Sequence record: QB031381.1
Strand: one strand, 5' to 3'
Length of the DNA stretch: 44,356 bases
Origin: a phage
Shown: positions 1 through 42,653 of the stretch, piece after piece
Numbering within the stretch: position 1 is the first letter of the stretch
Layout of the letters: the number at the start of each line of letters is the position of its first letter
Notes under the pieces: generated by a model
What the model was told of the DNA's origin: nothing
What the model saw: the letters and a program-made list of their open reading frames with translations, nothing else
Database searches by the model: none
Program-made: the position numbers and the translations under genes

Positions 1-1062
1 CAACGCGCTCAAGCGGCCCTAAACAAGCTGATCGCCGACAATGAGCAGTTAATCGCTGCGAGCAAAGAAAGAGCGCTAACGGCAGCCGAAAAGCAGCAGA
101 TGGTGGAATTTGGACGCGTGAAGGAAGTGCGCGAGCAGATCGTCGAAGAAGCCAAATTGCTGGACGCGAAAGAGAGGCAGGTTAAGGCGCACGCGCAGAT
201 CGATGCCTTCGTTAAGAACCAGAACGCCGAACTAAAAGCCACCGCCGCGGGCTATGCGCTTTCCACTCGCGAAGCGGCAAACCTGCGCGAAGAATTGCAG
301 CTAATTGACCGCCTGAAGCGGGTTGGCGCTAACGATACCGATATTGACAAGGCGGTGTCTAAGCTGCGGGAAGTGCAGGAAGCACAGACCGGCGCTAACG
401 CCTCGTTATGGGATGGATTCAGTCGCGGGCTTAAGGATAGCGTGGATGAGATGGGTAACGGATATACGCAGATGGAGTCTCTCACGAAATTCACATTCAG
501 CGCTATGCAGGACACGATGAACGAGTTTTTCGAGACTGGCAAGCTGAACGCAAAGGATATGGTTAAGTCCATCCTGAGCGAATTAATCAAGCTGGCTACC
601 TCGCAGGCGTTCAAGTCCATCGTTAGCGCTTTCGGTGGTGACGGCGGCAAAAACGGATTGTTCGGCGCTATCTTCTCTGGCCTTACTAAGAATGCGGACG
701 GCGGAGCGTACGCAGGAGGCAATCTCGCGGCCTATTCGGGGAAAGTGGTAAGCCAGCCTACCTTTTTCAGTTATGGCGTCCAGGCGTTCGCTAAGGGCGC
801 TGGGTTGATGGGGGAGGCTGGACCCGAGGCCATCATGCCACTGAAGCGCGGGCCGGACGGGAAACTGGGCGTTGCCGCGTCTGGCGCAGGCGGTGGTATG
901 GTCGTGACGACTAACGTTTACACGGGGACCGGTAAGACGGATACCAGTGTTGGCGGGCCGGACCCACGTACCGCGCAGGCGTTCGGCAAGCAAATCACCG
1001 AGGCGGTGAAGGCCGAGATCGTGAAGGCGACGAAACCGGGTGGTGTACTTTACAAACGATGA
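1..1062 (+). CDS. Tail tape measure protein, C-terminal portion (5' partial; reading frame open from base 1)
   Basis: The frame of ORF 100..1062 has no stop back to position 1. It follows the G/G-T chaperone genes and precedes M/L/K/I/J-like genes. It is in phase with the 3'-truncated ORF 42776..44356. Confidence 0.75.
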   Translation, partial: QRAQAALNKLIADNEQLIAASKERALTAAEKQQMVEFGRVKEVREQIVEEAKLLDAKERQVKAHAQIDAFVKNQNAELKATAAGYALSTREAANLREELQLIDRLKRVGANDTDIDKAVSKLREVQEAQTGANASLWDGFSRGLKDSVDEMGNGYTQMESLTKFTFSAMQDTMNEFFETGKLNAKDMVKSILSELIKLATSQAFKSIVSAFGGDGGKNGLFGAIFSGLTKNADGGAYAGGNLAAYSGKVVSQPTFFSYGVQAFAKGAGLMGEAGPEAIMPLKRGPDGKLGVAASGAGGGMVVTTNVYTGTGKTDTSVGGPDPRTAQAFGKQITEAVKAEIVKATKPGGVLYKR

Positions 1063-2485: not shown

Positions 2486-3226
2486 ATGTTAACGAAAAAG
2501 GTTAAAAGCGATATCGCCGCGCACGTTGCGGCATGTCTGCCGGAAGAAGCCTGTGGGCTGGTTGTCATGGTGGGCCGCAAACAAGTATTTGTCCCGTGCC
2601 CGAACGTATTCGAAGACCCTACCGGCGTGCGCTCACGCAAAGACGCGTTCACGATTAGTGATATGGCCTGGATGGATGCGGAGGATATGGGCGACGTCGT
2701 GCGCGTAGTCCACTCGCATCCAGGCCAGCGAGAGCTTACCCCATCACTGGGCGACGTTAACGGATGCAACGGCAGCGGCGTAGTCTGGGCCATCACTAAC
2801 GAATATGGCGACTTTATCGAGATCGACCCTGAAGATCCTCCGCTGGTGGGGCGTCGATTTGTTCTCGGAATTACGGATTGTTACGGCCTCGTCATGGACT
2901 GGCACAAAAAGCAGGGAGTAAGCCTGCCTGACTTCCGCGTGCCGTATAACTGGTGGGAGACAGGCGAGAATCTGTATATGGATAATTGGTACGGCGCGGG
3001 CTTCAGGGAGTGTGAGGAAAATACGCCGGGGGCGATGGTTATCATGCAGATCAGCGCGCCAGTACCTAACCATGCCGGGATATTCCTTCCGGGCAACCAA
3101 CTACTCCACCATATCTACGGCAGCCTGTCGAGCGTGATACCCTTCCGGTCGGGATTTTTCCGGGACAATGTGGTTAAATGGGTACGTCATAAAGACCTAC
3201 CGGGGAATATAACAGAATGGCAATGA
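2486..3226 (+). CDS. Tail assembly protein K-like (MPN/JAB plus NlpC/P60-type)
   Basis: HSHP metal-binding motif with an upstream Glu (EEACG...VVHSHPG), then a C-terminal Cys/His segment (ITDCYG...DWH). Sits in the gpK position. Confidence 0.65.
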   Translation: MLTKKVKSDIAAHVAACLPEEACGLVVMVGRKQVFVPCPNVFEDPTGVRSRKDAFTISDMAWMDAEDMGDVVRVVHSHPGQRELTPSLGDVNGCNGSGVVWAITNEYGDFIEIDPEDPPLVGRRFVLGITDCYGLVMDWHKKQGVSLPDFRVPYNWWETGENLYMDNWYGAGFRECEENTPGAMVIMQISAPVPNHAGIFLPGNQLLHHIYGSLSSVIPFRSGFFRDNVVKWVRHKDLPGNITEWQ

Positions 3227-11586: not shown

Positions 11587-11616
11587 ACTATAGTGCAACC
11601 AACCTATTGGTTGCAA
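11587..11616 (-). promoter_or_regulatory. Sigma70-like promoter overlapping a perfect inverted repeat
   Basis: Minus-strand reading: TTGCAA-N18-TATAGT. The spacer and -35 contain TGCAACCAA-CCTA-TTGGTTGCA (11594..11615). Confidence 0.45.
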
Positions 11617-12074
11617 GTGAATTTTGCAACGTTTATTGCGTAAATTTTCGGGACCAAATCACCACACGCCCGACGAATTGCCGCGATGTTCTTCTCGCAA
11701 TCTTCAATGATGACCAGTTCAGACACGTCCGCGTAACATACCATTTTGAACACGGCGCACGCTTTAAACTCAGGCGGCGGGGTGTCGTCCAACATGTGGC
11801 GCATAAACAACCGGCCTACCGGGAAGACCTCTAATTGCTCGGCGGTGGTGTCCCAACATTCTCGCTGCCGGTTGGTCAGATACGCGATCTCGAAGCCTTG
11901 CTCTTTATACATGCGCAGTAGCGGCAGCATATCCATGTTAAGGTCTTCGCGGACGTGCGCTTTGTGCCACTTCGCCCAAAAGGTGGATTTAGTTTTTATG
12001 CCAGGCACCAAGTCGGCACGCGCATCGCTTGAACCGTTAATAACGCCATCCAAATCGCAAATCAGTAATTTCAT
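11604..12074 (-). CDS. HAD-superfamily phosphatase (possible nucleotidase)
   Basis: N-terminal DxDGV motif (LICDLDGVIN) characteristic of HAD hydrolases; 156 aa. Confidence 0.6.
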   Translation of the reverse strand: MKLLICDLDGVINGSSDARADLVPGIKTKSTFWAKWHKAHVREDLNMDMLPLLRMYKEQGFEIAYLTNRQRECWDTTAEQLEVFPVGRLFMRHMLDDTPPPEFKACAVFKMVCYADVSELVIIEDCEKNIAAIRRACGDLVPKIYAINVAKFTCNQ

Positions 12075-12295: not shown

Positions 12296-12761
12296 GGAGT
12301 TCTCCTTCGCTCATTATTTCAATTTGTGCGCTGCCGATGGGTGGCGCTTCGCCAAAGATTATCAATTGCTGGCACTTGTTATTGCTCGGCCCGACTTCAC
12401 CGGTGACGGCATGTATAAATCGGATCCGCCAGTCCAGAAGAATTATCAGGTTTGCAGTCTTCCGGGCCAACCGCGCCCACTTTGTCGACGTGTCCTGATT
12501 CAGTAGCATGACGGTCCGGCGTCCGTGCGCTGCGCACTTAACCCACGGCAGCGGATCGGAATACGGCGGGTTGCACCACTTCCACCCTTTCAACTCTGAC
12601 CAGTCCACATCGAGCGCGCTGTGCTCCGCCGTGAAGTAACGCGGTAGCAGGTGGTTGGCATCGCTCGCCGCCATGTCATAACGGAATCGGTACTTCCGGC
12701 GCAGCGGTTTAAATAAAGCTGGCGGCGTGCGCCAGCTATCTTTTTGCTCACTCTTCTTCAT
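12276..12761 (-). CDS. DNA N6-adenine methyltransferase (phage Dam-like)
   Basis: N-terminal WRTPP motif and NPPY catalytic motif (WCNPPYS) typical of small phage N6-adenine methyltransferases. Confidence 0.65.
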   Translation of the reverse strand: MKKSEQKDSWRTPPALFKPLRRKYRFRYDMAASDANHLLPRYFTAEHSALDVDWSELKGWKWCNPPYSDPLPWVKCAAHGRRTVMLLNQDTSTKWARLARKTANLIILLDWRIRFIHAVTGEVGPSNNKCQQLIIFGEAPPIGSAQIEIMSEGELLEYLNR

Positions 12762-13212
12762 GGTCGGTGTCTATCGCATACAGGGCGATTTTATTGCCGG
12801 TTTTGAGAATGCGTTGCACGCGCTTTGATTCCTCGGCACTAAGCGGGCGCGCGTCCGGGTAGATGCTGCCGTTTGTAGGGTTGCGCCACGCCATGAGCAC
12901 AAGGTCTTTCCTGGCGATCGAAGACTGGCGGCCCTTCGGACGCACGTACTCCTCGGCACGTTTGCAATGCTCACGCAGCCCGTCGGCAGTGATGCGGTTT
13001 AGTGCAACGCTGGTGGTGTATCCGGTGCGCTGCATAATCCCCATCAATTCGAAAAGCAGTACGAAGCGCTCCGCTAGCTCCTGGCGCACTTTCTTCTCTC
13101 CTTCATATAGCGCCTGGTTGGTGTCCGCCAACGCGTTCGCACGTTCGGCCTGTTCGCGGGCTTCGAGGCATTGCGCGGCCCAGTAATCTTTTTCTTCTTG
13201 TAAAATTTTCAT
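12748..13212 (-). CDS. Hypothetical protein (predicted coiled coil)
   Basis: 154-aa ORF, Glu/Arg/Ala-rich N-terminus; operon context. Confidence 0.4.
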   Translation of the reverse strand: MKILQEEKDYWAAQCLEAREQAERANALADTNQALYEGEKKVRQELAERFVLLFELMGIMQRTGYTTSVALNRITADGLREHCKRAEEYVRPKGRQSSIARKDLVLMAWRNPTNGSIYPDARPLSAEESKRVQRILKTGNKIALYAIDTDHEEE

Positions 13213-13455
13213 TTATTTAATCTCCGTAGTGCGAATCTCTTTGCGTGGGATAAATTTGCCGTCCATCTCCACCCAACAGACTCCGTATCGCCATTGGGTG
13301 TTACGACCTGTTTGCTCGGCGTACACGGTCTTGCATCCGTAGCGTTCCGTGTAGTAAATAGCTGCGGTAGGTACGCAAACACAAACGGCAATCATGAGGG
13401 TGAGTATCACCCAAAATCTAAGGTCGCCGTCGTAGTCGAAAAATAATGATGTCAT
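13213..13455 (-). CDS. Small membrane protein
   Basis: Internal ATG with GGAGA RBS. One strong TM helix (FWVILTLMIAVCVCVPTAAIYY). The longer listed ORF overlaps the upstream promoter. Confidence 0.45.
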   Translation of the reverse strand: MTSLFFDYDGDLRFWVILTLMIAVCVCVPTAAIYYTERYGCKTVYAEQTGRNTQWRYGVCWVEMDGKFIPRKEIRTTEIK

Positions 13456-13501
13456 CGTTATGTCTCCAGGTATTAAAAAGGGCGTCCAACCGGACACCCT
13501 C

Positions 13502-13530
13502 AATATAATGCAACCAATATGCTTATGCAA
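13502..13530 (-). promoter_or_regulatory. Sigma70-like promoter with tandem ATTGGTTGCAT motifs
   Basis: Minus-strand reading: TTGCAT-N17-TATATT; two GCAACCAA copies at 13510..13517 and 13527..13534. Confidence 0.5.
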
Positions 13531-13535
13531 CCAAT

Positions 13536-13859
13536 TTACGCATAAAAATTTGGGTCGCGCGCTACGTCTACCAGATACAGATTGCTGATCCGGTTGCCGT
13601 AGTGCCCTGGCGTGCGCTGGCGGCACACAACGGCGAAGCCTGGGGGGATTGTATTGCCCGTCTCAATAATCCACGCCACGCGTGCGCCAGACAGCGTCTT
13701 ACCGTTGTATTCGATACGTGTTCCGCCATCGGCAGTGTTAAGGTTGCCAATCTTGCAGCCTGTGGACTTCAGGCGAATGACGCCGGTCTTGCTGTCGTAG
13801 GAAAAAAGCTGATTGGTCATTGCCACTGAAAAGTCGATGGCGTCGAATGTAGTATTCAT
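13536..13859 (-). CDS. Hypothetical protein
   Basis: 107-aa ORF, compact operon spacing. Confidence 0.4.
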   Translation of the reverse strand: MNTTFDAIDFSVAMTNQLFSYDSKTGVIRLKSTGCKIGNLNTADGGTRIEYNGKTLSGARVAWIIETGNTIPPGFAVVCRQRTPGHYGNRISNLYLVDVARDPNFYA

Positions 13860-14551
13860 TTTAAATTTTCCTCGTTAACCGCTATCGCGAAGCCGCGCGG
13901 GGTGAGTGAGCGGATTAATTTTGTACGAGCGGATTTACCACCGAGGCGACTATACTGTTTCGAGTACCCTTTTTCAACGAAAACAGGTTTCTTCGCGGGC
14001 ATACGAAAGCCGTTGCCGGTCCATAAGCAGGTCAGCTTCGGATATGAATCGCGGGCGTTGATGTATTCAGGGAATAACGGGTGTACGTCATCCTCTGGCA
14101 AATAGCCGCCATACTCCCACGGGTCAAACGAGTGGTCCGGCTTACGCCATTGAGTGGAGAGCACGCTGCGCGGATTCTCAATCATATACGGCACTTCGAA
14201 GAAATCACCCAGGTAAGCGGCTATCTTCGCGGTGCGCACTGCCTTAAGCTGGAAGGCAGGGTCGCGGGCGCGTTTGCGCGGGAAAGCTGGCGCACCGCTA
14301 ACCGCCAGATCCGTACACGGCGGGAATGCGTAAATGATATCCGGCGTGCCGAAATCACCATTCATCGCGCGGTCCACGAAGTCCAGATCGATAAACTCAT
14401 TACGATATCGGATACCGCGCCCATAGATCCGGTAATCAAGGTAAGACCCGTGATCGGCTTCGGAGTAGTTGAAGCAATAACACTTATGCCCCATCTCGGC
14501 AGCACGCTCAATCATCAAGCCGCTGCCGTCAAATAATGACCATATAATCAC
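13856..14551 (-). CDS. DNA cytosine-C5 methyltransferase-like protein
   Basis: FxGxG-like motif (LFDGSG), PPC motif with catalytic-type Cys (FPPCTDLAVSG) and ENP motif (MIENP). Short at 231 aa for a full methyltransferase. Confidence 0.5.
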   Translation of the reverse strand: MIIWSLFDGSGLMIERAAEMGHKCYCFNYSEADHGSYLDYRIYGRGIRYRNEFIDLDFVDRAMNGDFGTPDIIYAFPPCTDLAVSGAPAFPRKRARDPAFQLKAVRTAKIAAYLGDFFEVPYMIENPRSVLSTQWRKPDHSFDPWEYGGYLPEDDVHPLFPEYINARDSYPKLTCLWTGNGFRMPAKKPVFVEKGYSKQYSRLGGKSARTKLIRSLTPRGFAIAVNEENLK

Positions 14552-19246: not shown

Positions 19247-20026
19247 TTAACGGCGGCGACGTTTACGTGGTGCTTCGTCTTCGTCGTCTTCGTCCTCATC
19301 TTCATCGTCGCGCGGCTTACGACGTTTACGAGGTTTTTCATCTTCGTCGTCGTCATCGCGGCGCTTGGACTTTTTGGACTTGCGCGGCTTGTCGTCTTCG
19401 TCATCGTCATCACGACGTTTTGACTTTTTGGACTTGCGTGGGCTTTCATCTTCGTCATCGTTGTCCAGGTCTTCGTCGGAGCAAGAAGACCCGCCACCGC
19501 CGAAGGCTTCGCCGTCATCACGGAAGCGCAGACCCAAAAGACCAGCACCGAGTCCCTTGCCGTTGGTATTGTTCCACGCCCAAATATCCAGGGACACATT
19601 GCAATAACAACCGGAGTAGATCTCCTGGCCTTCGATCTCGTCGCCTTCTACGGTCAGACCTTGTTCCGTCTGCTTCTCGCCGAGTGACGTTTGAATGATC
19701 GGCTGTTTGAACGATTTGGCGTTGATGTACAACATGCCTTCGAATTCTTCGGTTACTTCGTCGCGCTCGTCACCGTCGCGAACTGCGCATTCCTTAGAAT
19801 CCTGGGCGTAGTGGCGGTCCATCCACTTATCAGCATTCTTCTCGGATTTCAGCTTGTCGGTGAGCACTGCGCGCGCTGCCGCTTCCACTTTGTCCACCTG
19901 CGGATCTTCTTTATCAAGAATAATCACTGCACGGTATGCCGGTTTTTGACCATCCTGTTTAGGGGTATCGCGTTCCCAAATTTTAAGGAAACATACGCGC
20001 ACATTTTTCAGGTTGACTTTAGCCAT
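19247..20026 (-). CDS. Putative ssDNA-binding protein with a long charged repeat C-terminal extension
   Basis: Start MAKVNLKNVRV with GAGGAA RBS. Sits between the Cas4-like nuclease and the polymerase. Gly-rich linker then an acidic/basic repeat tail. Confidence 0.5.
   Translation of the reverse strand: MAKVNLKNVRVCFLKIWERDTPKQDGQKPAYRAVIILDKEDPQVDKVEAAARAVLTDKLKSEKNADKWMDRHYAQDSKECAVRDGDERDEVTEEFEGMLYINAKSFKQPIIQTSLGEKQTEQGLTVEGDEIEGQEIYSGCYCNVSLDIWAWNNTNGKGLGAGLLGLRFRDDGEAFGGGGSSCSDEDLDNDDEDESPRKSKKSKRRDDDDEDDKPRKSKKSKRRDDDDEDEKPRKRRKPRDDEDEDEDDEDEAPRKRRRR
19250..19460 (-). repeat. In-frame tandem repeat (about 51-nt period) encoding KPRKSKKSKRRDDDDED-type units
   Basis: Near-identical nucleotide units visible at 19362..19440; about 3.5 units at protein level. 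Confidence 0.7.
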
Positions 20027-20091
20027 TTTCCAATTCCTCATTCTCGCATGTATCGGGGTTATTATGAGCCACCCCGTTCGGCTTGGTTGCT

Positions 20092-20121
20092 AATCTACTT
20101 GGTTGCGCCTGGGTGGTCAAG
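20092..20121 (-). promoter_or_regulatory. Candidate promoter (TTGACC-N18-TAGATT) with two TTGGTTGC copies
   Basis: Motif copies at 20083..20090 and 20099..20106 upstream of the SSB-like gene. Confidence 0.3.
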
Positions 20122-20359
20122 CATTTTCATTAAAAAGATTTCGGGTCACGTAGTTGGTGGCGTTCTCGACCCAGCTTAGCGGCGGGCGTTCGATGTTCTT
20201 TTCCACCCAATAGACGGCAGCTTCGCTATAGCCGTCGTCCAGCCAGCGGGTCGGATGGCGAATCATCCAGGCCACCATTAACACGCCTTGCACACAATGC
20301 AGGATAAAGCCCAGTGCGCCGAGCAAAAACATCAATAAGATTGCGAATACTTTATTCAT
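20117..20359 (-). CDS. Small membrane protein
   Basis: N-terminal TM segment (FAILLMFLLGALGFILHCV); 80 aa. Confidence 0.4.
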   Translation of the reverse strand: MNKVFAILLMFLLGALGFILHCVQGVLMVAWMIRHPTRWLDDGYSEAAVYWVEKNIERPPLSWVENATNYVTRNLFNENA

Positions 20360-21782
20360 TGCTTAAGTCCTCGTCAGTAGCTTCCGACCACGCGGGGCGC
20401 GGGTCGTCGATGGGCGCTAATACCGGTTTAGCCGGTGCGCGGGTGATTTTATCACACAGCTTCGCCCACACTTTCGGTTTTTCGTCCTTCAGCACCTTCT
20501 CGGCATCTGTCGGGCTGAGCAATGTTTCTTTGTACATCACATCGCGCTTGATCCGGGCCTTCGTGAAGATTTCAATCACTTCGCTCTCGTCTGCCCACTT
20601 ACGGATCCCTTCCTTACCGGCAACCATCTTAAGGCCCAACGATTTGCCATCGCCCGCCATGACCGCCTTGAATACCGCGGATTCGATAGCTTTGATGTGC
20701 TGGCGCATTGCGTCAAGTCCTTCATAAGCCTTGCGCAGTTCCGCCGCGCTCATAGCGCCTGGGGTGGATTCCTTCTTGCCCCGTTTAGCACGTCGGGCAG
20801 CCTTCCGGGCTTCGCGGGCCATATTGCGGTCGTGGTTGGCGCACTCTTCCTCGGTTGCCACGCTCACGTCGTCGCCCAGGTCTTCGTCGGTTGCCGTTGG
20901 TGGCGTCATTGTGTCGATTGCGGCCTTCGCCCGGACGCTGCACTGGTCCGCAAATCTGCACCACTGGCACGCATCGACGCTGGGCCGGAAGTCGGCGCGG
21001 GTCAGTCCCTTCTTGCCACGGGCGTATGTATCGAGCGCGGCGATAGCACGCTTGGACGCAAACTTCGCGGATATCTCCAGCGCTTCCACTGAGATATCCC
21101 ACTCTGACGCCCCGCCGCAATACGGCTGGAAGATGACCAGGCGCACGGTCGTAATGTCATACATGGTTTGCAGCTTGCGCAGCAGGCCGAGCGCGTACAA
21201 CATAAGCTGTTTGTTTTCTTTCGCCTCGACCTTATGTCGCCCGGTCTTCAAGTCGCCAACAATCAGCATGTACGTGCCATCGGTCTTCTTCATGACCATG
21301 ACCATATCGGCAGTGCCGAACGTCTTAACCTTGTTACCGTCGATCTCGACTCCTGGGTGGAGGACGCGGGTGAGATCGGCGCGCATCTCAAGCTGGACAA
21401 ACTCCGCCACTTCGAGGAGCGGTCGCCAGTGGTCGATGTACGCGTCGCACTGTTTCACCATATCGTCGTTGACCAGTACGCCGCCTTTCGGTGCTTTCGG
21501 GTGCGCCTTTACTGGCCCCTTGCCTTCATTCTCGACGTAACATCCTTTATACGTCTTTGCTGTTATCAGCTTTTCACCGGCGATAATGCGGTTTAGCACC
21601 ACTTCAGATACGGTGTGCATACTCGTACCGTTAATCGCGGCTTGCCCGGATTCGTTCGGGATATCTTTTTCTACCACCAGGGCGGCGGGACACCCCATCC
21701 ATTTTTTAGCACCGGATGGGCCAAGTAATGAGTGTTCCGTATTGCTGCCGGATTGCGTTTTACGTTTTGGTTTAATCGCCAT
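20352..21782 (-). CDS. PD-(D/E)xK exonuclease, Cas4-like, with four-Cys cluster
   Basis: N-terminal SGAKKWMGCPA plus C-terminal CQWCRFADQC (C-x2-C-x5-C) gives a four-Cys arrangement like Cas4/AddB-type Fe-S nucleases; 476 aa. Confidence 0.6.
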   Translation of the reverse strand: MAIKPKRKTQSGSNTEHSLLGPSGAKKWMGCPAALVVEKDIPNESGQAAINGTSMHTVSEVVLNRIIAGEKLITAKTYKGCYVENEGKGPVKAHPKAPKGGVLVNDDMVKQCDAYIDHWRPLLEVAEFVQLEMRADLTRVLHPGVEIDGNKVKTFGTADMVMVMKKTDGTYMLIVGDLKTGRHKVEAKENKQLMLYALGLLRKLQTMYDITTVRLVIFQPYCGGASEWDISVEALEISAKFASKRAIAALDTYARGKKGLTRADFRPSVDACQWCRFADQCSVRAKAAIDTMTPPTATDEDLGDDVSVATEEECANHDRNMAREARKAARRAKRGKKESTPGAMSAAELRKAYEGLDAMRQHIKAIESAVFKAVMAGDGKSLGLKMVAGKEGIRKWADESEVIEIFTKARIKRDVMYKETLLSPTDAEKVLKDEKPKVWAKLCDKITRAPAKPVLAPIDDPRPAWSEATDEDLSNE

Positions 21783-28085: not shown

Positions 28086-28376
28086 ATGGATAAGCTAAAC
28101 GAGTGGCTATTCGCCCTGGCATGTCTGGCGGGTGGCTTCGTAGGCGCACGCATTCATGGCGAGGCTACGAAGGGGCCGCTAAACTTCGTTTTGTATGTCG
28201 TAGTTGGCTTCCTGTGTGCCATATTTGGCGCACCGGCTATTGCCGAGTGGGCCGGTTTGTCGGGCGAGCGCACTGTCGCCGGTTTAGGCTTCGTAACCGC
28301 AATCTTCTGGATGCCAATCGCCGACCGGATCAGGGAGACTATTGCGTCGTTCCGACTTCCGGGGGGTGCAAAATGA
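28086..28376 (+). CDS. Holin (three predicted TM helices)
   Basis: 96 aa with three hydrophobic segments, directly upstream of the lysozyme gene. Confidence 0.55.
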   Translation: MDKLNEWLFALACLAGGFVGARIHGEATKGPLNFVLYVVVGFLCAIFGAPAIAEWAGLSGERTVAGLGFVTAIFWMPIADRIRETIASFRLPGGAK

Positions 28377-28618
28377 TTATCTCCGTCCTGTTGTTTGTTA
28401 TCATCGGGGCTTCGTCCCTGTTTAACGTGTATGCGCCGTCCGTCCGGGATGGCATTTTCGGCCTGGTGCTGTATCTGTTAACGGCAATGGTCTGTATTAT
28501 CGGATTGTTGCAAACAGGAGACGTATCGGATACCACCTGGACCGCGTTAATCTGGCTGTTTGCATTGCGCACACTGCGTAATGCTGTTTTGAATGGGGTA
28601 AAACATGCGATTCAGTGA
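28373..28618 (+). CDS. Second small membrane protein of the lysis cassette (holin or antiholin-like)
   Basis: 81 aa, ATGA overlap with the upstream gene, multiple TM segments. Confidence 0.4.
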   Translation: MIISVLLFVIIGASSLFNVYAPSVRDGIFGLVLYLLTAMVCIIGLLQTGDVSDTTWTALIWLFALRTLRNAVLNGVKHAIQ

Positions 28619-29096
28619 CAACGGTCTGAGATTTACGGCAGCATGGGAGGCTTTCAGCCCGGTGCCGTATTTCGCGACCAAGAAAGAGCAGGCCCGTGGC
28701 CTGTACACCTGGGGTTATGGGCATACCGGCACTAATCCGCCACGAAGCATTACCCGTGCAGAAGCGCTGGAGCTACTCAAGCGCGATGTGGCGTATGCCG
28801 AAGACTGGGTAAACAAATACGCGCATCCGAGCATTAATCAAGCGCAATTCGACGCGCTGGTGGATCTGGTAATCAATGCCGGTCCGGGTCCGATCGTACC
28901 GGATGACGTAGCGAATGATTTCGATGATGCGGTGCGACTGGGAGACTGGGCGAAGGTCCGTGCTACGCTGCCGCTGTTCCGCAAGCAAGGCGGGGAAGTG
29001 CTTAAGGGTCTGGTGCGCCGTGCAATCGGCAGACAGGCGTTATTTGATGGTAAGCAGTGGGACGTTGCCGAGCGAATCGGTCGTAACGCAGCATAA
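28605..29096 (+). CDS. Endolysin, T4-lysozyme-like (GH24-type)
   Basis: E-x8-Y...TWGYGHTG pattern characteristic of phage lysozymes; 163 aa. Confidence 0.7.
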   Translation: MRFSDNGLRFTAAWEAFSPVPYFATKKEQARGLYTWGYGHTGTNPPRSITRAEALELLKRDVAYAEDWVNKYAHPSINQAQFDALVDLVINAGPGPIVPDDVANDFDDAVRLGDWAKVRATLPLFRKQGGEVLKGLVRRAIGRQALFDGKQWDVAERIGRNAA

Positions 29097-29286: not shown

Positions 29287-29313
29287 AAGCCCGGTATTAT
29301 CCGGGCTTTTTAT
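29287..29313 (+). terminator. Rho-independent terminator
   Basis: AAGCCCGG-TATTAT-CCGGGCTT hairpin followed by TTTTATT. Confidence 0.6.
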
Positions 29314-29372
29314 TGCCCGCCTCGATAAGTCCCGTGATATATTGTCCCCGGTCCCATAATCAGGAAGTAATT

Positions 29373-30515
29373 ATGCACCCGCAAACTAAAATCACAGACG
29401 AGCAATTGATTGCTGAATTACAATCCGGCGCTACATCGAAAGAGATTTCTAAGAAGTACGGTTTGTCCCTCCGAAACGTCTACATGCGGAAAGCCCGCCT
29501 ATCGAAAAAAGGAATTGGTCACGGCAACGACGCCGTAATCCGCCAGCGCGTTGCCGATGGCTTCGGCGTTAAGCGCGTATCGGCCCTGGTGCGCGGCAAT
29601 GGCGAAGAGGTCATGTCGTGGGTCATCACTGAGCAGGATAAGGAGCGCCAACTCGAAGCCATGCGCGCTGTTGTCGAGGGTATGAACAGCGAAATCACAC
29701 CGGCAGCGCCAGTAAACGCCCCATGCCAGTATACCCAGGCGCTTGACTTGCTCAACCTGTACACCGTGTCCGACTTCCACCTGGGCATGTTGGCGTGGGG
29801 CGAGGAGACTGGCGAAGACTGGGATATGGCGATCGCCGAAGACCTGTTCTACCGCTGGTTTGTCGAAGCCTTCGCACGCGCACCAGACGCAGGCACTGCC
29901 GTGATCAATATCCTCGGCGATATGGCGCACTTTGATAGCCTCGACGCCGTCACTCCCGCCAGCGGTCACGTACTGGACGCCGACACCCGATACCAGAAGT
30001 TGGTCCGCTATATGATTCGCATGGTGCGCAACGTCGTCGAACTGGCGCTGCAAAAACACCACAAAGTCAAACTGCTAATCGTCCAGGGGAATCATGATGA
30101 GTCGGGTATGATCTGGCTGGCTGAGATGTTCAATACTCTGTACGAGAACGAGCCGCGCGTCGATGTGGATACGTCCCCGGACGTTTACAAAATGGTGCAG
30201 CACGGAAAGACCACGCTATTCTTCCACCACGGGCACAAAGCGCGATTCGATGTTATCGAGCAGGTTATGATCGCTAAATTCAGACAGGCGTTCGGGGCGA
30301 GCGAATACAGCTACGCGCACGTAGGCCATTTGCACCACCAGAAGATTGTTGAATCCCGCAACATGATTGTTGAACAGCACAGGACGCTCGCAGCGAAAGA
30401 CGCCTACGCCAGTCGTGGCGGTTGGATGTCAGGTCGCAGCGCCAACGTCATTACCTACAGCGCCAACTACGGCGAAGTAGCGCGCTTAACCATTAGCCCG
30501 GAAATGTTGAAGTAA
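29373..30515 (+). CDS. Calcineurin-like metallophosphoesterase with N-terminal HTH
   Basis: ATG with AGGAAG RBS. HTH-like N-terminus (TSKEISKKYGLSLRNVYMRKARL), then DFHLG, GDMAHFD, GNHDE, HHGH and GHLHH motifs. Confidence 0.55.
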   Translation: MHPQTKITDEQLIAELQSGATSKEISKKYGLSLRNVYMRKARLSKKGIGHGNDAVIRQRVADGFGVKRVSALVRGNGEEVMSWVITEQDKERQLEAMRAVVEGMNSEITPAAPVNAPCQYTQALDLLNLYTVSDFHLGMLAWGEETGEDWDMAIAEDLFYRWFVEAFARAPDAGTAVINILGDMAHFDSLDAVTPASGHVLDADTRYQKLVRYMIRMVRNVVELALQKHHKVKLLIVQGNHDESGMIWLAEMFNTLYENEPRVDVDTSPDVYKMVQHGKTTLFFHHGHKARFDVIEQVMIAKFRQAFGASEYSYAHVGHLHHQKIVESRNMIVEQHRTLAAKDAYASRGGWMSGRSANVITYSANYGEVARLTISPEMLK

Positions 30516-30645
30516 CGGCAACCCGTACCCCTCCCAGCCTGCCGATTTGGTGGGCTTTTTTGTGCCTGTTATAATCCCCCTTAGATGGCAGGGCCGTCTC
30601 CTATGTTGCCGATGGTCGGCGCATATGAACAAAAGGGTTTATATC

Positions 30646-31197
30646 ATGGCAGAAATCAAAGTTAAGGGCCGACGCGCCAAACTGGACGGACGAGTAGCAG
30701 TAACCCCGCGCCGTAAACCCGGCGAGCAAACCGAGCATACCAATCTCGGACCTGAAATCGAGTACGGAAAGCGCCGTAAAGGCGGCAAATGTGGACGCCC
30801 TACTGACTACCGATCCGTTTACTGTGACCAGCTTCGCCGCTATTTTGCCGACGCCGACGCCTGGCAGGTCAACTACTCCGATAAAGGCGCTGCGCAAGTA
30901 ATCCCCCGCAACAAAATGCCAACCTTCGGTCGATTTGCCGCGGAAATCGGCGTGGGCGTAGCTTGCCTGTATCGCTGGGCGCGTGCGCATGAGGAGTTCG
31001 CTGAGGCGATGGCGGACGCAATGGAGTTACAAAAAACCTTCCTGATGGAAGCTGGCGGCGTGACCATCGCGGCAGGCTTCGCTACATTCCTGCTTAAAGC
31101 AAACCACGGCGTCCGCGACGATGTGCCGCTGGATGACGACGAAGATGATAACGGCGACGTCGTAGTGGAACCTTCCGGCAAAGGCCAGGGTGAATAA
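30646..31197 (+). CDS. Terminase small subunit
   Basis: 183 aa directly upstream of the large subunit with an overlapping stop/start; HTH-like RFAAEIGVGVACLYRWARAH; acidic C-terminus. Confidence 0.55.
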   Translation: MAEIKVKGRRAKLDGRVAVTPRRKPGEQTEHTNLGPEIEYGKRRKGGKCGRPTDYRSVYCDQLRRYFADADAWQVNYSDKGAAQVIPRNKMPTFGRFAAEIGVGVACLYRWARAHEEFAEAMADAMELQKTFLMEAGGVTIAAGFATFLLKANHGVRDDVPLDDDEDDNGDVVVEPSGKGQGE

Positions 31198-32582
31198 TGC
31201 GTAACTATGCGGCAGAACACCGCGCACTGGAACGCGCGATCGCAAAGCGCAACCGACCGCCACGCCCGACACGCGTTGCGCAGGCCGTCCGCCTTTACCA
31301 GCCTGATTGCTTGCCGCACCAGGTTGAACTACTGCGCGACACAAAGACTAAAATCCTCGGCCTGTGTTCCGGCTTCGGCGGTGGAAAGTCGTGGGTCGCT
31401 GCGCGTAAGGTCATCCAGCTTTTAACCCTGAACCCCGGTCATGACGGCATCGTTACAGAACCGACTATTCCCCTCCTGGTTAAAATCATGTATCCGGAAC
31501 TGGAGAAGGCATTCGACGAGGCTGGATTCCGGTGGAAATTCAATAAGCAGGATAAGATCTACAACGTGCTGGTAAAAGGCAAATGGACCCGCGTGATCTG
31601 TGAATCAATGGAGAACTATACCCGCCTGATCGGGGTCAACGCCGCGTGGATTGTTGCCGACGAGTTCGACACCACGAAACAAGACGTCGCGCTGGCGGCG
31701 TATCACAAATTGCTCGGTCGTCTGCGTGCTGGCTTCGTCCGCCAGTTCGTCATCGTATCGACGCCTGAAGGCTACCGGGCGATGTACCAAATTTTCGAGG
31801 TGGAGAAAGACAACCAGAAACGCCTGATCCGGGCGAAGACCACGGACAACCACCATTTACCGGCGGACTTTATCGACACGCTCCGCAGTCAGTACCCAGC
31901 TAACCTGATTGATGCGTACCTGAACGGCCTGTTTGTTAACCTTACGTCGGGCGCGGTGTACAAGATGTTTAATCGCGAGGAGAACGCCAGCACCGAAGAA
32001 GTGCAGCCGGACGACACGCTGATTATCGGTATGGACTTTAACGTCACGAAGATGGCGGCGGTTGTGTACGTCAGACGGCAGCGAGTCACCGAGAACAAGG
32101 AGTTCCGCGACGAGATTCACGCGGTGGATGAATTTGTGGACCTGTTTGACACCCCGGCTATGGTTGAGGCGATCGAGGAGCGCTACCCAGATCATTGTGC
32201 TGCCGGTCGTGTTGTCGTTTACCCGGATAGCAGCGGCAAATCCCGCAAGACGGTCAACGCGTCGTCGTCCGATATCGCACAACTGGAAGATGCGGGCTTC
32301 GAGGTGGAGTATGACAGCGTTAACCCACCTGTGAAAGATCGATTGATCGCGATGAATACGATGATGTGCAACTCGAAGGGCGTGCGCCAGTATTTTGTCA
32401 ACCTGGATAAATGCCCTACACTAGCGAAATGCCTGGAACAGCAGGTGTACGACCTGAAGAAAGGCGAGCCGGATAAAACTGCCGGTGTGGACCACATGAA
32501 TGACGCAGCGGGCTACCCTATTGCGCACTTGTTCCCTGTGATTCGTCCGATCGCCGTTGTTCCAACTGTAGACTTCTACTAA
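31197..32582 (+). CDS. Terminase large subunit
   Basis: Walker A-like (GLCSGFGGGKSW), Walker B-like (WIVADEFD), C-terminal nuclease-type acidic residues; 461 aa before the portal gene. Confidence 0.8.
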   Translation: MRNYAAEHRALERAIAKRNRPPRPTRVAQAVRLYQPDCLPHQVELLRDTKTKILGLCSGFGGGKSWVAARKVIQLLTLNPGHDGIVTEPTIPLLVKIMYPELEKAFDEAGFRWKFNKQDKIYNVLVKGKWTRVICESMENYTRLIGVNAAWIVADEFDTTKQDVALAAYHKLLGRLRAGFVRQFVIVSTPEGYRAMYQIFEVEKDNQKRLIRAKTTDNHHLPADFIDTLRSQYPANLIDAYLNGLFVNLTSGAVYKMFNREENASTEEVQPDDTLIIGMDFNVTKMAAVVYVRRQRVTENKEFRDEIHAVDEFVDLFDTPAMVEAIEERYPDHCAAGRVVVYPDSSGKSRKTVNASSSDIAQLEDAGFEVEYDSVNPPVKDRLIAMNTMMCNSKGVRQYFVNLDKCPTLAKCLEQQVYDLKKGEPDKTAGVDHMNDAAGYPIAHLFPVIRPIAVVPTVDFY

Positions 32583-41699: not shown

Positions 41700-42077
41700 T
41701 TGGAGAATTACATAATGGCTAAATCACCACTCTTCACACTTGACCCTAAACCGACCTTTAAGCTGCCGATTGAGATCCCGCGCCCTGGTGAGAACGAACC
41801 GGGCAAAATGACGTTTACCGTGCGCCACCGCCCTATCGACGAATTTTCGCAGACCATGCAGGACACTGAGCGCAAATTGTCGGAGTATGACGACAATGAC
41901 CCGGAAGGATTTAACGTTATGGTCGAGGCCATCATGCACGTCGCTGAAGGCTGGAATTTGCCGGACGAATTTAATGCTGCCAACGTCCGCCGCCTGGTAG
42001 TCAACTACCCGCGCGCGTTCGGCGTGTTCCATACGTCGTACTACCTCGAATTGATGGGGTTGCGTGAAAAAAACTAA
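41700..42077 (+). CDS. Tail assembly chaperone G
   Basis: 125 aa ending at a slippery A AAA AAC heptamer immediately before the stop. Confidence 0.6.
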   Translation: MENYIMAKSPLFTLDPKPTFKLPIEIPRPGENEPGKMTFTVRHRPIDEFSQTMQDTERKLSEYDDNDPEGFNVMVEAIMHVAEGWNLPDEFNAANVRRLVVNYPRAFGVFHTSYYLELMGLREKN

Positions 42078-42391
42078 TTGAGGCGGCGCGGCGCTTTTAT
42101 GGCCCGCCGCCACCCTCCGAAGATTTAGCCGCGAGTTTATGGGGTGCGACACCTGAAGACGTGTGTCCACCTGTTGCGCTGTGGCCCGACAACGCTAAGG
42201 TAGTCGCAGTCTTCACAGATTGCTCCACGCAATGGCGTACCGGATTTGGCGGGGCATACGGCATAGACTACGGCGTACTGGAATGGTTATTTAAGATGCA
42301 CGGCATCGAAAACGCGCAACGTGCGTTTAAAGATATCAAGCTAATGGAACGCGTTGCGCTGGATGAAATGGCGCGGCAGAACCCCGCATAA
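41700..42391 (+). CDS. Tail assembly chaperone G-T fusion via programmed -1 ribosomal frameshift
   Basis: Slippery heptamer A_AAA_AAC at 42068..42074. The -1 frame is open from 42068 through 42391 with no stop and contains ORF 42161..42391. Confidence 0.55.
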
Positions 42392-42395
42392 CGAA

Positions 42396-42653
42396 GCGGG
42401 ACAGGCGGGACGTCCCGTTTTGTCCCGCCACCATTAAACCGCATATATACTCACTTTCATTGCATAAACTAAAAGCGGGACAGGGGTGCTGTCCCAATCT
42501 GTCCCGCCCCTTAAAAGTGAATAGCTATTCTGTTTTCCTGCATAAAACAAACGGGACAGAAAGCGGGACAGAATGAGGCGGGACAAAGCGGGACAGCACC
42601 CCTGTCCCCGTCAGTGCTGCCGCGGGTTTTAGCCGATCGGGACAGGCGGGACA
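42396..42653. repeat. Iteron array: about 12 (G)CGGGACA repeats in both orientations, with GGGACAG-N6-CTGTCCC dyads
   Basis: Copies at 42396, 42405, 42421 (rc), 42475, 42500 (rc), 42552, 42563, 42578, 42588, 42638 and 42646; dyads at 42477..42495 and 42589..42607. Confidence 0.8.

What the first reader, a model, noticed from the sequence alone, without database searches (positions are those of the whole stretch)
29373..30515. HTH plus calcineurin-like metallophosphoesterase encoded between the lysis cassette and the terminase genes
The protein combines an N-terminal helix-turn-helix with a complete metallophosphoesterase motif set (DxHxG, GDxxHxD, GNHD, HHGH, GHxHH). That set is shared by Ser/Thr protein phosphatases, Mre11/SbcD-type nucleases and cyclic-nucleotide phosphodiesterases. 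A DNA-binding domain fused to such a domain at the start of the packaging operon is unusual. It could be a nuclease, a protein phosphatase acting on host factors, or a phosphodiesterase degrading defence signalling nucleotides.
Basis: partly seen in the sequence, partly recalled or inferred. Interest (0 to 1): 0.55.

Follow-up and report, generated by a model that had tools for sequence, protein, structure and literature searches.

The report
Phage DNA-binding metallophosphoesterase, probable nuclease
The gene is real and encodes a DNA-binding domain fused to an intact metal-dependent phosphoesterase, but it belongs to a very common, already annotated phage family that includes phage T1 gp16; its fold looks most like DNA nucleases and I found no experimental test of its function.

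Summary
Window 29373-30515 (+) encodes a 380-aa protein with an N-terminal three-helix HTH, a conserved beta-hairpin/helix linker and a complete metallophosphoesterase (MPE) domain. All metal-binding and catalytic residues are invariant in 63 diverse homologues.

The window is a Dhillonvirus, an E. coli siphophage. The protein matches PHROG_704 ("DNA repair exonuclease") over its full length. The family occurs in about 4% of deposited phage genomes, including T1 gp16 (45% identical), Jerseyvirus, Kagunavirus and Webervirus, and in proteobacterial prophage-like loci. It is not unusual.

In the window the gene has terminator-like hairpins on both sides and promoter-like elements, so it appears to stand outside the packaging operon. 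The slot between lysis and terminase genes recurs in many lineages but is not universal. Some lineages couple the gene to a HAD phosphatase and a P-loop kinase.

Best reading: an HTH-tethered solo DNA nuclease or phosphodiesterase, possibly degrading host DNA or processing DNA. Its function remains untested. Interest is modest.

The parts
29287..29308 (+). Terminator-like hairpin (AAGCCCGG-6 nt-CCGGGCTT, then a T-run) that ends the lysis cassette. It is present only in the window's sub-lineage.
   Evidence: Found by the scan. RNA fold gives -16.4 kcal/mol, z -4.7. It is absent from HK1 and Lzu_P1 but present in L018, L020 and L021.
29335..29343 (+). Promoter-like extended -10 element (TG-A-TATATT) of the MPE gene.
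   Evidence: This is my reading of the sequence; the scan tool did not call it because there is no good -35. TGRTATATT is conserved in all 13 IMG/VR Dhillonvirus loci, even where the sequence further upstream is unrelated.
29362..29367 (+). Shine-Dalgarno sequence AGGAAG, 5 nt before the ATG.
   Evidence: Read directly from the sequence.
29373..30515 (+). CDS of the 380-aa HTH-metallophosphoesterase (PHROG_704 family; orthologue of T1 gp16).
29394..29507 (+). N-terminal helix-turn-helix domain, residues 8-45 (three helices).
   Evidence: AlphaFold helices at 9-17, 22-29 and 33-45. Family profile matches GerE, sigma region 4 and LuxR-type HTH structures, weakly. Pfam HTH models match family members.
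29562..29687 (+). Conserved beta-hairpin plus helix, residues 64-105 (G77 and W83 at least 90% conserved across the family). Role unknown.
29739..30497 (+). Metallophosphoesterase domain, residues 123-375. Motif I 29772-29786, II 29916-29936, III 30087-30098, IV 30225-30236, V 30324-30338. A family-specific loop TPxSGHxLDxDxR spans residues 194-206.
30536..30556 (+). Terminator-like hairpin followed by TTTTTT, directly after the MPE stop codon.
   Evidence: Found by the scan. RNA fold gives -12.3 kcal/mol, z -2.1. Invariant in HK1 and Lzu_P1.
30567..30575 (+). Consensus extended -10 (TGTTATAAT) in front of terS. It suggests the packaging genes have their own promoter.
   Evidence: Read from the sequence. 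Invariant in relatives. The scan tool did not call it because the -35 matches only 3 of 6.
30646..31197 (+). Terminase small subunit (context, not part of the MPE unit).
31197..32582 (+). Terminase large subunit (context).

Best explanation
The gene encodes a catalytically intact, binuclear-metal phosphoesterase of a distinct phage family (PHROG_704; T1 gp16). The enzyme is tethered to DNA by an N-terminal HTH. It most likely acts alone as a DNA phosphodiesterase (nuclease), without a Rad50/SbcC-type partner.

Shown here:
- The architecture and the conservation of the active site.
- The fold and which solved enzymes it most resembles.
- The distribution of the family.
- The promoter-like and terminator-like signals around the gene in the window.

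Inferred:
- The substrate is DNA.
- The biological role is breakdown of non-phage (host) DNA with nucleotide salvage, or processing of DNA ahead of packaging. It is not a step of the packaging reaction itself.
- The HTH either targets the enzyme to DNA or, in relatives with an inverted repeat over the -10, also represses its own promoter.

My rough confidence: an active MPE about 0.9; a DNA-directed nuclease about 0.55; specifically host-DNA degradation and salvage about 0.3.
For: - Catalytic residues are invariant across 63 homologues that share only 32-81% identity with the query.
- In BFVD, remote viral relatives are auto-annotated 'DNA polymerase II small subunit' or 'SbcD'.
- Motif II is GDxxH, with His186 at least 90% conserved. 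From memory, Mre11 has GDLFH.
- A DNA-binding HTH is present in all 63 aligned members (115-150 residues precede motif I). Its type varies, and longer members carry two HTHs. That pattern fits interchangeable DNA-targeting modules.
- The gene is core in the genus: found in 155 records, against 157 for TerL.
- In 16 Guernseyvirinae-like loci and in Webervirus, the gene heads an operon of MPE, then a HAD_PNKP-type phosphatase, then a P-loop GKDT kinase annotated as dNMP kinase. This links it to nucleotide and DNA-end metabolism.
- There are two precedents for phage MPEs that destroy host DNA. Mycobacteriophage A10ZJ24 Gp48 is a nuclease in vitro and in vivo (PMC12287305). T5 A1 is a putative metallophosphatase that is necessary and sufficient for host DNA degradation (bioRxiv 10.64898/2026.04.02.716235).
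Against: - No biochemical or genetic data exist for any member of this family in the literature I could search.
- Profile comparison finds only motif III in common with E. coli SbcD (probability 2.9%) and with T5 A1 (18%).
- The family also occurs inside large bacterial chromosomes in prophage-like settings. There, an indiscriminate host-DNA nuclease would need tight control.
- The window encodes no homologue of the P-loop kinase and no close homologue of the HAD_PNKP phosphatase. The salvage association is therefore absent in this genus.
- It is unknown how the phage's own DNA would be spared.
Confidence: 0.55

Rival explanations
1. It is a nucleic-acid end-healing phosphoesterase. The MPE would remove 3'-phosphate or 2',3'-cyclic phosphate ends on DNA or RNA broken by host defence nucleases. 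It would work with the HAD_PNKP-type 3'-phosphatase and a ligase.
For: - MPE domains do this in bacterial Pnkp, and lambda phosphatase has 2',3'-cyclic phosphodiesterase activity (PMC2190708).
- In MEW1, Webervirus and 16 Guernseyvirinae-like loci a HAD_PNKP phosphatase gene directly follows the MPE gene. In MEW1 and the Kagunavirus-like loci (e.g. L026) the two overlap by 4 nt (ATGA).
- In Campylobacter phage F360 the relative lies next to a DNA ligase and a Holliday-junction resolvase.
- The window encodes a distant HAD-like 'pnk' at 11604-12074 (-).
Against: - The P-loop protein in the operon has the GKDT signature of dNMP kinases, not of polynucleotide kinase (the motif assignment is from memory).
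- In T1 and in Dhillonvirus the HAD gene is far from the MPE gene.
- An HTH is not a feature of known end-healing enzymes.
Confidence: 0.15
2. It is an anti-defence phosphodiesterase that degrades cyclic mono-, di- or oligonucleotide immune signals (CBASS, Pycsar, Thoeris, type III CRISPR). The fused HTH would act as an Aca-like autorepressor of its own promoter.
For: - In the window the gene has promoter-like and terminator-like signals of its own.
- In Guernseyvirinae it sits in a variable accessory island beside a superinfection-immunity gene.
- In most Dhillonvirus relatives a 6-9 bp inverted repeat, GGACCGTGG-TATATTGT-CCACGGTCC, brackets the -10 like an operator.
Against: - The gene is a core gene, not a sporadic accessory one (155 of 157 records). 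It is deeply conserved across phage families, which is unlike typical anti-defence genes.
- The known signal-degrading phage enzymes (Acb1, Apyc1) have other folds (from memory).
- There are no PADLOC matches.
- The inverted repeat is degenerate in this window, and the pattern has no match anywhere in it.
- Nucleases rank above phosphodiesterases in the fold search.
Confidence: 0.1
3. It is a packaging-associated or DNA-maturation nuclease that works with terminase. It could trim branched concatemers or assist end formation, as HNH proteins do in HK97-like phages.
For: - It lies directly upstream of terS and terL in Dhillonvirus.
- It lies 1-4 kb upstream of TerL or portal, on the same strand, in Jedunavirus and in at least 11 of 36 proteobacterial loci. 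These carry at least four TerL types, including HK97-like and Sf6-like.
- In L090 and L091 the order is MPE, HNH, then TerL (with a TerS-sized ORF between them in L091). L089 has MPE then HNH, with TerL not confirmed.
Against: - The position is not kept in T1-like phages, Guernseyvirinae, the Rhodobacter phage or Campylobacter phages.
- In the window a terminator-like hairpin and a separate promoter-like element lie between the gene and terS.
- It associates with unrelated TerL families. That argues for a permissive genomic slot rather than a co-evolving partnership.
- L091 still carries its own HNH gene, so the MPE does not replace it.
Confidence: 0.1
4. It is a Ser/Thr (or Tyr) protein phosphatase acting on host or phage proteins, like lambda phosphatase (NinI).
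For: It shares the superfamily motif set. Lambda-type phosphatases do exist in phages (established knowledge).
Against: - Motif II is GDMAHFD. It lacks the PPP signature GDxVDRG (the signature is from memory; the sequence is).
- There is no specific Pfam or NCBIfam match.
- A fused DNA-binding HTH has no precedent in this class.
Confidence: 0.03

Closest known systems
PHROG_704 ('DNA repair exonuclease'), including phage T1 gp16 (ST16) and homologues in Jerseyvirus, Kagunavirus and Webervirus
   Same: Full-length match at E 8e-160 over residues 5-380. It is 45% identical to T1 gp16 over 377 residues. The architecture is the same: HTH, beta-hairpin, MPE.
   Different: Nothing of substance; this is the family the protein belongs to. 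The family name is a homology-based label. I found no experimental characterisation.
Mre11/SbcD nucleases (including T4 gp47 and T5 D12/D13)
   Different: There is no sequence-profile kinship beyond motif III (hhalign probability 2.9% against E. coli SbcD). The protein ends about 60 residues after motif V, which leaves no room for a capping or Rad50-binding domain. No Rad50/SbcC-like gene is in the genome. The N-terminal HTH is not an Mre11 feature.
Archaeal PolD small subunit DP1 (3'-5' proofreading exonuclease)
   Different: Sequence identity is 13%. There is no DP2 partner. T1 carries the gene but has no annotated DNA polymerase. It is not a polymerase subunit.
T5 A1 (putative metallophosphatase needed for host DNA degradation)
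   Same: Both are phage-encoded solo MPE-type proteins. The T5 authors describe A1 as resembling double-strand-break repair nucleases and polymerase proofreading subunits (bioRxiv 10.64898/2026.04.02.716235), which matches the fold neighbours found here.
   Different: There is no specific homology: hhalign aligns only motif III, probability 18%. A1 is 556 aa and has no Pfam match. It is largely confined to Demerecviridae.
Mycobacteriophage A10ZJ24 Gp48 (cluster A MPE nuclease)
   Same: A phage MPE with the five motifs. It has been shown to be a phosphodiesterase and DNase that degrades host DNA and counters defence (PMC12287305).
   Different: In Gp48, motif I starts at residue 10, so it has no N-terminal HTH. 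No cluster A mycobacteriophage appeared among the listed tblastn hits. I did not compare the sequences directly.
Lambda Ser/Thr phosphatase (NinI) and the MPE domain of bacterial Pnkp
   Same: Same superfamily. These are phage or repair-associated phosphoesterases with 2',3'-cyclic phosphodiesterase activity (PMC2190708).

Membership tests
Calcineurin-like metallophosphoesterase superfamily | Five motifs that supply the metal ligands and catalytic His: DxH, GD, GNH[DE], H, GHxH. | tested here: met
   All five are present. They are invariant or at least 90% conserved in 63 homologues.
Calcineurin-like metallophosphoesterase superfamily | The MPE beta-sandwich fold. | tested here: met
Calcineurin-like metallophosphoesterase superfamily | Pfam gathering score for PF00149 or PF12850. 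| tested here: inconclusive
   20.3 against 21.5 bits, and 22.2 against 27 bits; just below the cut-off. 17 and 11 of the 63 members match at E of 0.01 or better.
Calcineurin-like metallophosphoesterase superfamily | Metal-dependent hydrolytic activity. | not testable with these tools
   Needs biochemistry.
PHROG_704 / T1 gp16 family | Full-length profile match that includes the N-terminal region. | tested here: met
   E 8.1e-160, residues 5-380 against profile positions 2-390 of 390. 45% identity to T1 gp16.
Helix-turn-helix DNA-binding domain (LuxR/GerE or sigma region 4-like) | A three-helix HTH that sequence models recognise. | tested here: met
   The single sequence is sub-threshold (GerE E 0.024). 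The family profile matches GerE, sigma-H region 4, RhlR and DesR only weakly (E 0.035 and above). Family members reach Sigma70_r4_2 at 1.5e-9. The predicted helices have pLDDT 92-95. DNA binding itself was not tested.
Mre11/SbcD | Sequence-profile homology across the nuclease domain. | tested here: not met
   hhalign of the family alignment against E. coli SbcD aligns 16 columns around GNHD, probability 2.9%. The family profile against PDB Mre11/SbcD gives E 0.33-0.85.
Mre11/SbcD | A C-terminal capping domain and a Rad50/SbcC-binding region. | tested here: not met
   Only about 60 residues follow motif V (318-322 of 380). They form strands of the core sandwich.
Mre11/SbcD | A partner SMC-like ATPase (Rad50/SbcC) encoded alongside. 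| tested here: not met
   Every window ORF of 500 aa or more is otherwise assigned: tape measure, J, fibre, helicase, DNA polymerase, helicase-primase, portal. No such neighbour appears in any of the sampled loci.
PPP Ser/Thr protein phosphatases (lambda phosphatase type) | Motif II GDxVDRG, and close fold similarity to PPP enzymes. | tested here: not met
Class III cyclic-nucleotide phosphodiesterases (CpdA/Rv0805) | Closest fold or sequence relationship to CpdA/Rv0805, and cNMP hydrolysis. | tested here: inconclusive
T5 A1-like host-DNA degradation factor | Homology to A1 beyond the shared superfamily motifs. | tested here: not met
   hhalign probability 18%, 19 columns at motif III.
Free-standing homing endonuclease | Sporadic presence or absence among close relatives. 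| tested here: not met
   Present in 155 Dhillonvirus records against 157 for TerL. By tblastn the gene is widespread in Jerseyvirus and Drexlerviridae; presence across every member was not checked.
Known anti-phage defence or counter-defence proteins (PADLOC) | A match to a defence-system model. | tested here: not met
   No families at E up to 1.

The most novel reading that the evidence does not exclude
The PHROG_704 HTH-MPE could be the unidentified nuclease by which T1-like, Dhillon- and Jersey-type siphophages destroy the host chromosome or non-phage DNA. From memory, T1 has a genetically defined host-DNA-degradation function, 'gene 2.5', whose product was never assigned.

In this reading the enzyme feeds a HAD-phosphatase and dNMP-kinase salvage route in some lineages. 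Its own HTH holds it in check by binding an operator-like inverted repeat over the -10 of its promoter. That would assign a function to a core gene found in about 4% of sequenced phages.
Probability: 0.25. Interest if true: 0.55.

Novelty: new member of a known kind. Interest (0 to 1): 0.33.

Why it matters
On its own this gene is one more copy of a well-populated, already annotated family. The family, though, is a core gene of several of the most frequently isolated virulent enterobacterial siphophage groups (T1-like, Dhillonvirus, Jerseyvirus, Kagunavirus, Webervirus). It is also found in many proteobacterial prophage-like loci. I found no experimental function for it.

If it is a host-DNA or DNA-processing nuclease, several things follow:
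- It would bear on nucleotide supply for the phage.
- It would bear on generalised transduction risk in therapeutic phages.
- It could trigger defence systems that sense DNA damage or degradation products.

If it instead degrades immune signalling nucleotides, it would add a new enzyme fold to phage counter-defence. Either way the question can be tested directly in T1 and in the BASEL Dhillonvirus isolates.

Tried and rejected
Database and homology checks that gave nothing useful:
- Direct PDB sequence search: only spurious matches of residues 66-101 to designed armadillo-repeat proteins.
- NCBIfam and PADLOC: nothing meaningful.
- Homology to T5 A1 and to E. coli SbcD by hhalign: only motif III aligns. 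I therefore make no family-level claim.

Literature leads that did not pan out:
- The Dhillonvirus anti-Tmn protein is a small rod-shaped protein, ORF35 (PMC11846954).
- The KpAvs2 trigger Ksap1 is a 74-aa protein elsewhere in the genome (PMC11564622).
- The Dhillonvirus trigger of Retron-Eco7 is described only as a protein of unknown function, and no supplement text is held (PMC12640716).
- The essentiality screens I checked (Tn-seq, HIDEN-SEQ) do not mention this family or Dhillonvirus/Drexlerviridae in their main text; PhageMaP works on T7 and Bas63 according to its abstract, which is all I saw of it.
- Nine literature searches found no characterisation of this family.

Ideas tested and dropped or weakened:
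- Homing endonuclease: rejected, because the gene is core in the genus.
- An operator for the HTH in this window: the inverted repeat seen in relatives is degenerate here and the pattern has no match in the window.
- My early view that the position next to terminase is not conserved had to be corrected. The position is recurrent, in at least 11 of 36 genome loci, but not universal.

Technical failures and unused leads:
A 6-sequence alignment worked.
- T5 Dmp has no Pfam match, so I did not use an 'A1 plus HAD phosphatase' parallel.
Full report
**What is there.** The window is essentially a complete Dhillonvirus genome, an E. coli siphophage. The 1,143-nt region matches 155 phage records at 80-97% nucleotide identity, nearly all of them Escherichia or Shigella Dhillonvirus. 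The ORF runs from ATG 29373 to TAA 30515, giving 380 aa. An AGGAAG ribosome-binding site lies 5 nt upstream. These are the same boundaries as the annotated CDS in close relatives, where the product is called 'DNA repair exonuclease', 'putative phosphoesterase' or 'hypothetical protein'. Upstream lie the holin (28086-28376), the endolysin (28605-29096) and a 55-aa ORF. Downstream lie terS (30646-31197), terL (31197-32582) and the portal gene. G+C content is the same as in the rest of the genome.

I aligned 63 homologues drawn from a search of 1.84 billion cluster representatives. They share only 32-81% identity with the query. In that alignment D134, H136, G182, D183, N240, H241, H286, G318 and H321 are invariant. 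H186, D188, D242, H285, H288 and H319 are at least 90% conserved. These are therefore active enzymes, not decayed domains.

The N-terminal HTH is weak for the single sequence (GerE E 0.024). It rests on three other results:
- Three confidently predicted helices at residues 9-45.
- Family-profile matches to GerE, sigma-H region 4, RhlR and DesR structures, which are weak (E 0.035 and above).
- Pfam HTH matches in many members, up to 1.5e-9.

All 63 members have 115-150 residues ahead of motif I. Longer members carry two HTHs. Between the HTH and the catalytic domain lies a conserved beta-hairpin plus helix (residues 64-105; G77 and W83 at least 90% conserved across the family). The catalytic domain also carries a family-specific loop, TPxSGHxLDxDxR (194-206), in which T194 is invariant.

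**It is not unusual.** The protein matches PHROG_704 ('DNA repair exonuclease') end to end at E 8e-160. The family has 4,640 clusters at 50% identity with E of 1e-3 or better. tblastn finds a relative of the protein in 2,060 of 50,697 phage records. These include Dhillonvirus, Jerseyvirus and Kagunavirus, Drexlerviridae (Webervirus among them), Vibrio, Rhodobacter and Ruegeria phages, and Campylobacter phages; the weakest matches cover only the MPE part of the query. The classical phage T1 encodes a 45%-identical orthologue, gp16/ST16. Within Dhillonvirus the gene is core: 155 records hold it, against 157 that hold terL. This also rules out a sporadic, homing-endonuclease-like distribution. 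A scan of one genome per species found 36 further loci in Proteobacteria at 37-55% identity. Several lie inside megabase-scale chromosomes, so they look like prophages.

This is a resemblance, not membership. hhalign of the family against E. coli SbcD and against T5 A1 aligns only the GNHD motif, with probabilities of 2.9% and 18%. The protein ends about 60 residues after motif V, which leaves no room for a capping or Rad50-binding domain. Neither the window nor any sampled relative encodes a Rad50/SbcC-like ATPase. It is a distinct, solo MPE family whose fold is nearest the nuclease branch.

**Anatomy of the locus.**
- The gene is bracketed by two terminator-like hairpins with T-runs: 29287-29308 (-16.4 kcal/mol, z -4.7) and 30536-30556 (-12.3 kcal/mol, z -2.1).
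- Between the upstream hairpin and the start codon lies an extended -10 element, TG-A-TATATT (29335-29343). The element TGRTATATT is conserved in all 13 IMG/VR Dhillonvirus loci, even where the sequence further upstream is unrelated.
- Right after the downstream hairpin comes a consensus extended -10, TGTTATAAT (30567-30575), in front of terS. It is invariant in relatives.
- The promoter assignments are my reading of the sequence. The scan tool did not call them because their -35 regions are poor.
- Taken together, the signals suggest that in this phage the gene is its own unit, not the first gene of the packaging operon. No transcript data exist to confirm this.

**Position in other phages.** The picture is mixed.
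- In Guernseyvirinae the gene (73-76% identical) lies on the opposite strand inside the tail module. It sits in a small variable island: a superinfection-immunity gene upstream, then the MPE gene, then either a HAD_PNKP phosphatase plus a P-loop protein, or a 76-aa protein, with or without HNH and Rha/ANT genes.
- In T1-like phages it follows the Dam region and precedes the lysis genes.
- In Webervirus the order is MPE, HAD_PNKP phosphatase, P-loop 'dNMP kinase', holin.
- In Jedunavirus MEW1 the order is MPE, then the HAD phosphatase with a 4-nt overlap, then terS about 1.7 kb further on.
- In the proteobacterial loci a TerL or portal gene lies 1-4 kb downstream on the same strand in at least 11 of 36 cases. 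At least four TerL types are involved, including HK97-like (6z6d, E 1e-143) and Sf6-like.
- An endolysin lies within about 2 kb in most of the 13 loci (of 36) where one was detected.
- In L090 and L091 the order is MPE, HNH, then TerL (with a TerS-sized ORF between them in L091). L089 has MPE then HNH, with TerL not confirmed.

So the slot between lysis and terminase genes is recurrent but not universal. The gene keeps company with unrelated terminase families there. That reads more like a permissive boundary between modules than a co-evolving partnership. The partnership is not excluded, and I keep it as a rival.

**How it most likely works.** An intact binuclear-metal phosphoesterase is always fused to one or two interchangeable HTH modules, and its fold neighbours are DNA nucleases. 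The simplest mechanism is a DNA-tethered phosphodiesterase, that is, a nuclease acting without an ATPase partner.

Two experimentally studied phage MPEs set a precedent for the biological role:
- Mycobacteriophage A10ZJ24 Gp48 is a phosphodiesterase and DNase. It degrades host DNA early in infection and thereby silences defence genes (PMC12287305).
- T5 A1 is a putative metallophosphatase that its authors liken to double-strand-break repair nucleases and polymerase proofreading subunits. It is necessary and sufficient for host chromosome degradation (bioRxiv 10.64898/2026.04.02.716235).

Translational coupling to a HAD_PNKP-type phosphatase is seen in MEW1 and the Kagunavirus-like loci (4-nt ATGA overlap); in Webervirus the phosphatase gene directly follows. 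In the Kagunavirus-like loci and Webervirus a GKDT P-loop kinase comes next. This fits a degrade-and-salvage route. From textbook knowledge, T4 uses the Mre11/Rad50-type gp46/47 nuclease for host DNA breakdown and the gp1 dNMP kinase for salvage. Also from memory, T1 degrades host DNA through a genetically defined function, gene 2.5, whose product has not been assigned.

Counter-points:
- The HAD-kinase pair is unlinked from the MPE gene in T1. In the window no homologue of the kinase, and no close homologue of the phosphatase, is detectable by tblastn.
- The family also lives in prophage-like loci.
- The fold ranking separates nucleases from small-molecule phosphodiesterases only weakly.
- No member of the family has been tested.

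I therefore put about 0.9 on an active MPE, about 0.55 on a DNA nuclease, and about 0.3 on host-DNA degradation and salvage specifically. The rivals are end-healing with the HAD phosphatase (0.15), degradation of cyclic-nucleotide immune signals with an Aca-like autoregulatory HTH (0.10), a packaging or maturation nuclease (0.10) and a protein phosphatase (0.03).

**A regulatory detail.** In most Dhillonvirus relatives a 6-9 bp inverted repeat brackets the -10 of the gene's promoter: GGACCGTGG-TATATTGT-CCACGGTCC. That is the geometry of an operator, and the fused HTH is an obvious candidate to bind it. In this window's sub-lineage (the window, L018 and L021) the left arm has been replaced and the repeat is degenerate. 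The pattern does not occur anywhere else in the window. Autoregulation is therefore a hypothesis for relatives, not a feature I can claim here.

**Literature.** Nine full-text searches and thirteen papers gave no characterisation of this family. The known Dhillonvirus factors are different genes: anti-Tmn, Nmad5 and Ksap1 (PMC11846954, PMC11564622). A Dhillonvirus trigger of Retron-Eco7 is reported only as a protein of unknown function (PMC12640716). It remains an open lead.

**Verdict.** The domain call and the candidate activities are reasonable. The claimed unusualness and the 'start of the packaging operon' reading do not hold. Among the three activities, a nuclease is the best supported and a protein phosphatase the least. 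The gene is a further member of a known, annotated but functionally untested family. Interest is modest (0.33). What interest there is comes from a core gene of T1-like and related phages, present in about 4% of sequenced phages, that still lacks an experimentally assigned function.

Noticed in passing
window 29326-29352; relatives L001:4950-4985 and L013-L025 just upstream of position 3001: In most Dhillonvirus relatives an operator-like inverted repeat, GGACCGTGG-TATATTGT-CCACGGTCC, brackets the -10 of the MPE promoter. In the window's sub-lineage the left arm is replaced (GTCCCGTGA) and the repeat is degenerate. The pattern has no match anywhere in the window.
   Followed up: partly
window 30536-30575: A terminator-like hairpin is followed immediately by a consensus extended -10 (TGTTATAAT) in front of terS. 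Both are invariant in relatives. This looks like a compact terminator-promoter junction that insulates the packaging and structural operon.
   Followed up: partly
L026:4122-5164, L006:1716-2908, L005:5119-5613, L007 (T1):4948-6534: Genes annotated 'polynucleotide kinase' in T1-like, Webervirus, Jedunavirus and Kagunavirus phages contain only the HAD_PNKP phosphatase domain (PF25109, E 1e-17 to 1e-21) and no kinase domain. They are usually followed by a GKDT P-loop protein annotated as dNMP kinase; T1 ST62 is 43% identical to the Webervirus one. In several lineages this pair sits directly behind the MPE gene.
   Followed up: partly
L007 (T1) 42028-42510; L011:4510-5019; L009:4659-5159; L086:7335-7625; L089:7104-7742; L090:7069-7893; L091:7085-7435: An HNH endonuclease gene lies immediately downstream of the MPE gene in at least eight unrelated lineages. 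In L090 and L091 the order is MPE, HNH, then TerL (with a TerS-sized ORF between them in L091; L091's TerL is HK97-like, 6z6d E 1e-143). I did not resolve whether these are homing HNH genes or packaging-associated ones.
   Followed up: partly
L004, L009 and L026-L080 (Guernseyvirinae-like loci): The MPE gene is the constant member of a small island on the opposite strand, inserted in the tail module between the major tail protein and tail chaperone genes. The other occupants vary: Imm_superinfect (PF14373), the HAD-plus-kinase pair, a 76-aa protein, HNH, Rha/ANT.
   Followed up: partly
window 12748-13212 (-) and 13213-13626 (-): A 153-aa protein is labelled 'DNA ligase' by PHROG_10530, has no Pfam match, and is far too short for a ligase. 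By position it is probably the gene the KpAvs2 paper calls a 'phosphatase' next to ksap1. The ksap1 locus should lie at about 13213-13626, between this gene and the Dam methyltransferase (13856-14551).
   Followed up: no
window 19247-21782 (-): A recombination module: a Gp2.5-like ssDNA-binding and annealing protein (PHROG_112) next to a 475-aa DUF2800 / PD-(D/E)XK exonuclease (PHROG_69). The phage therefore already has a conventional recombination exonuclease besides the MPE.
   Followed up: no
window 1-1062 and the window's 3' end: The window starts inside the tape-measure gene: ORF 100-1062 matches only the C-terminal third of tape-measure profiles. The record is therefore opened at an arbitrary point of a circularly permuted or circularly assembled genome.
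   Followed up: no
protein residues 66-101 (window 29568-29675): phmmer against the PDB gives repeated low-scoring matches of this segment to designed armadillo-repeat proteins (4rv1, 4hxt; E 3e-6 from summed repeats). This is a repeat artefact, not homology.
   Followed up: yes
L083-L118 (genome contigs): Homologues at 37-55% identity lie inside large chromosomes or large chromosomal contigs of Dyella, Phenylobacterium, Bordetella, Herbaspirillum, Ralstonia and others, next to lysis, terminase or portal genes. The family is therefore not confined to virulent phages.
   Followed up: partly
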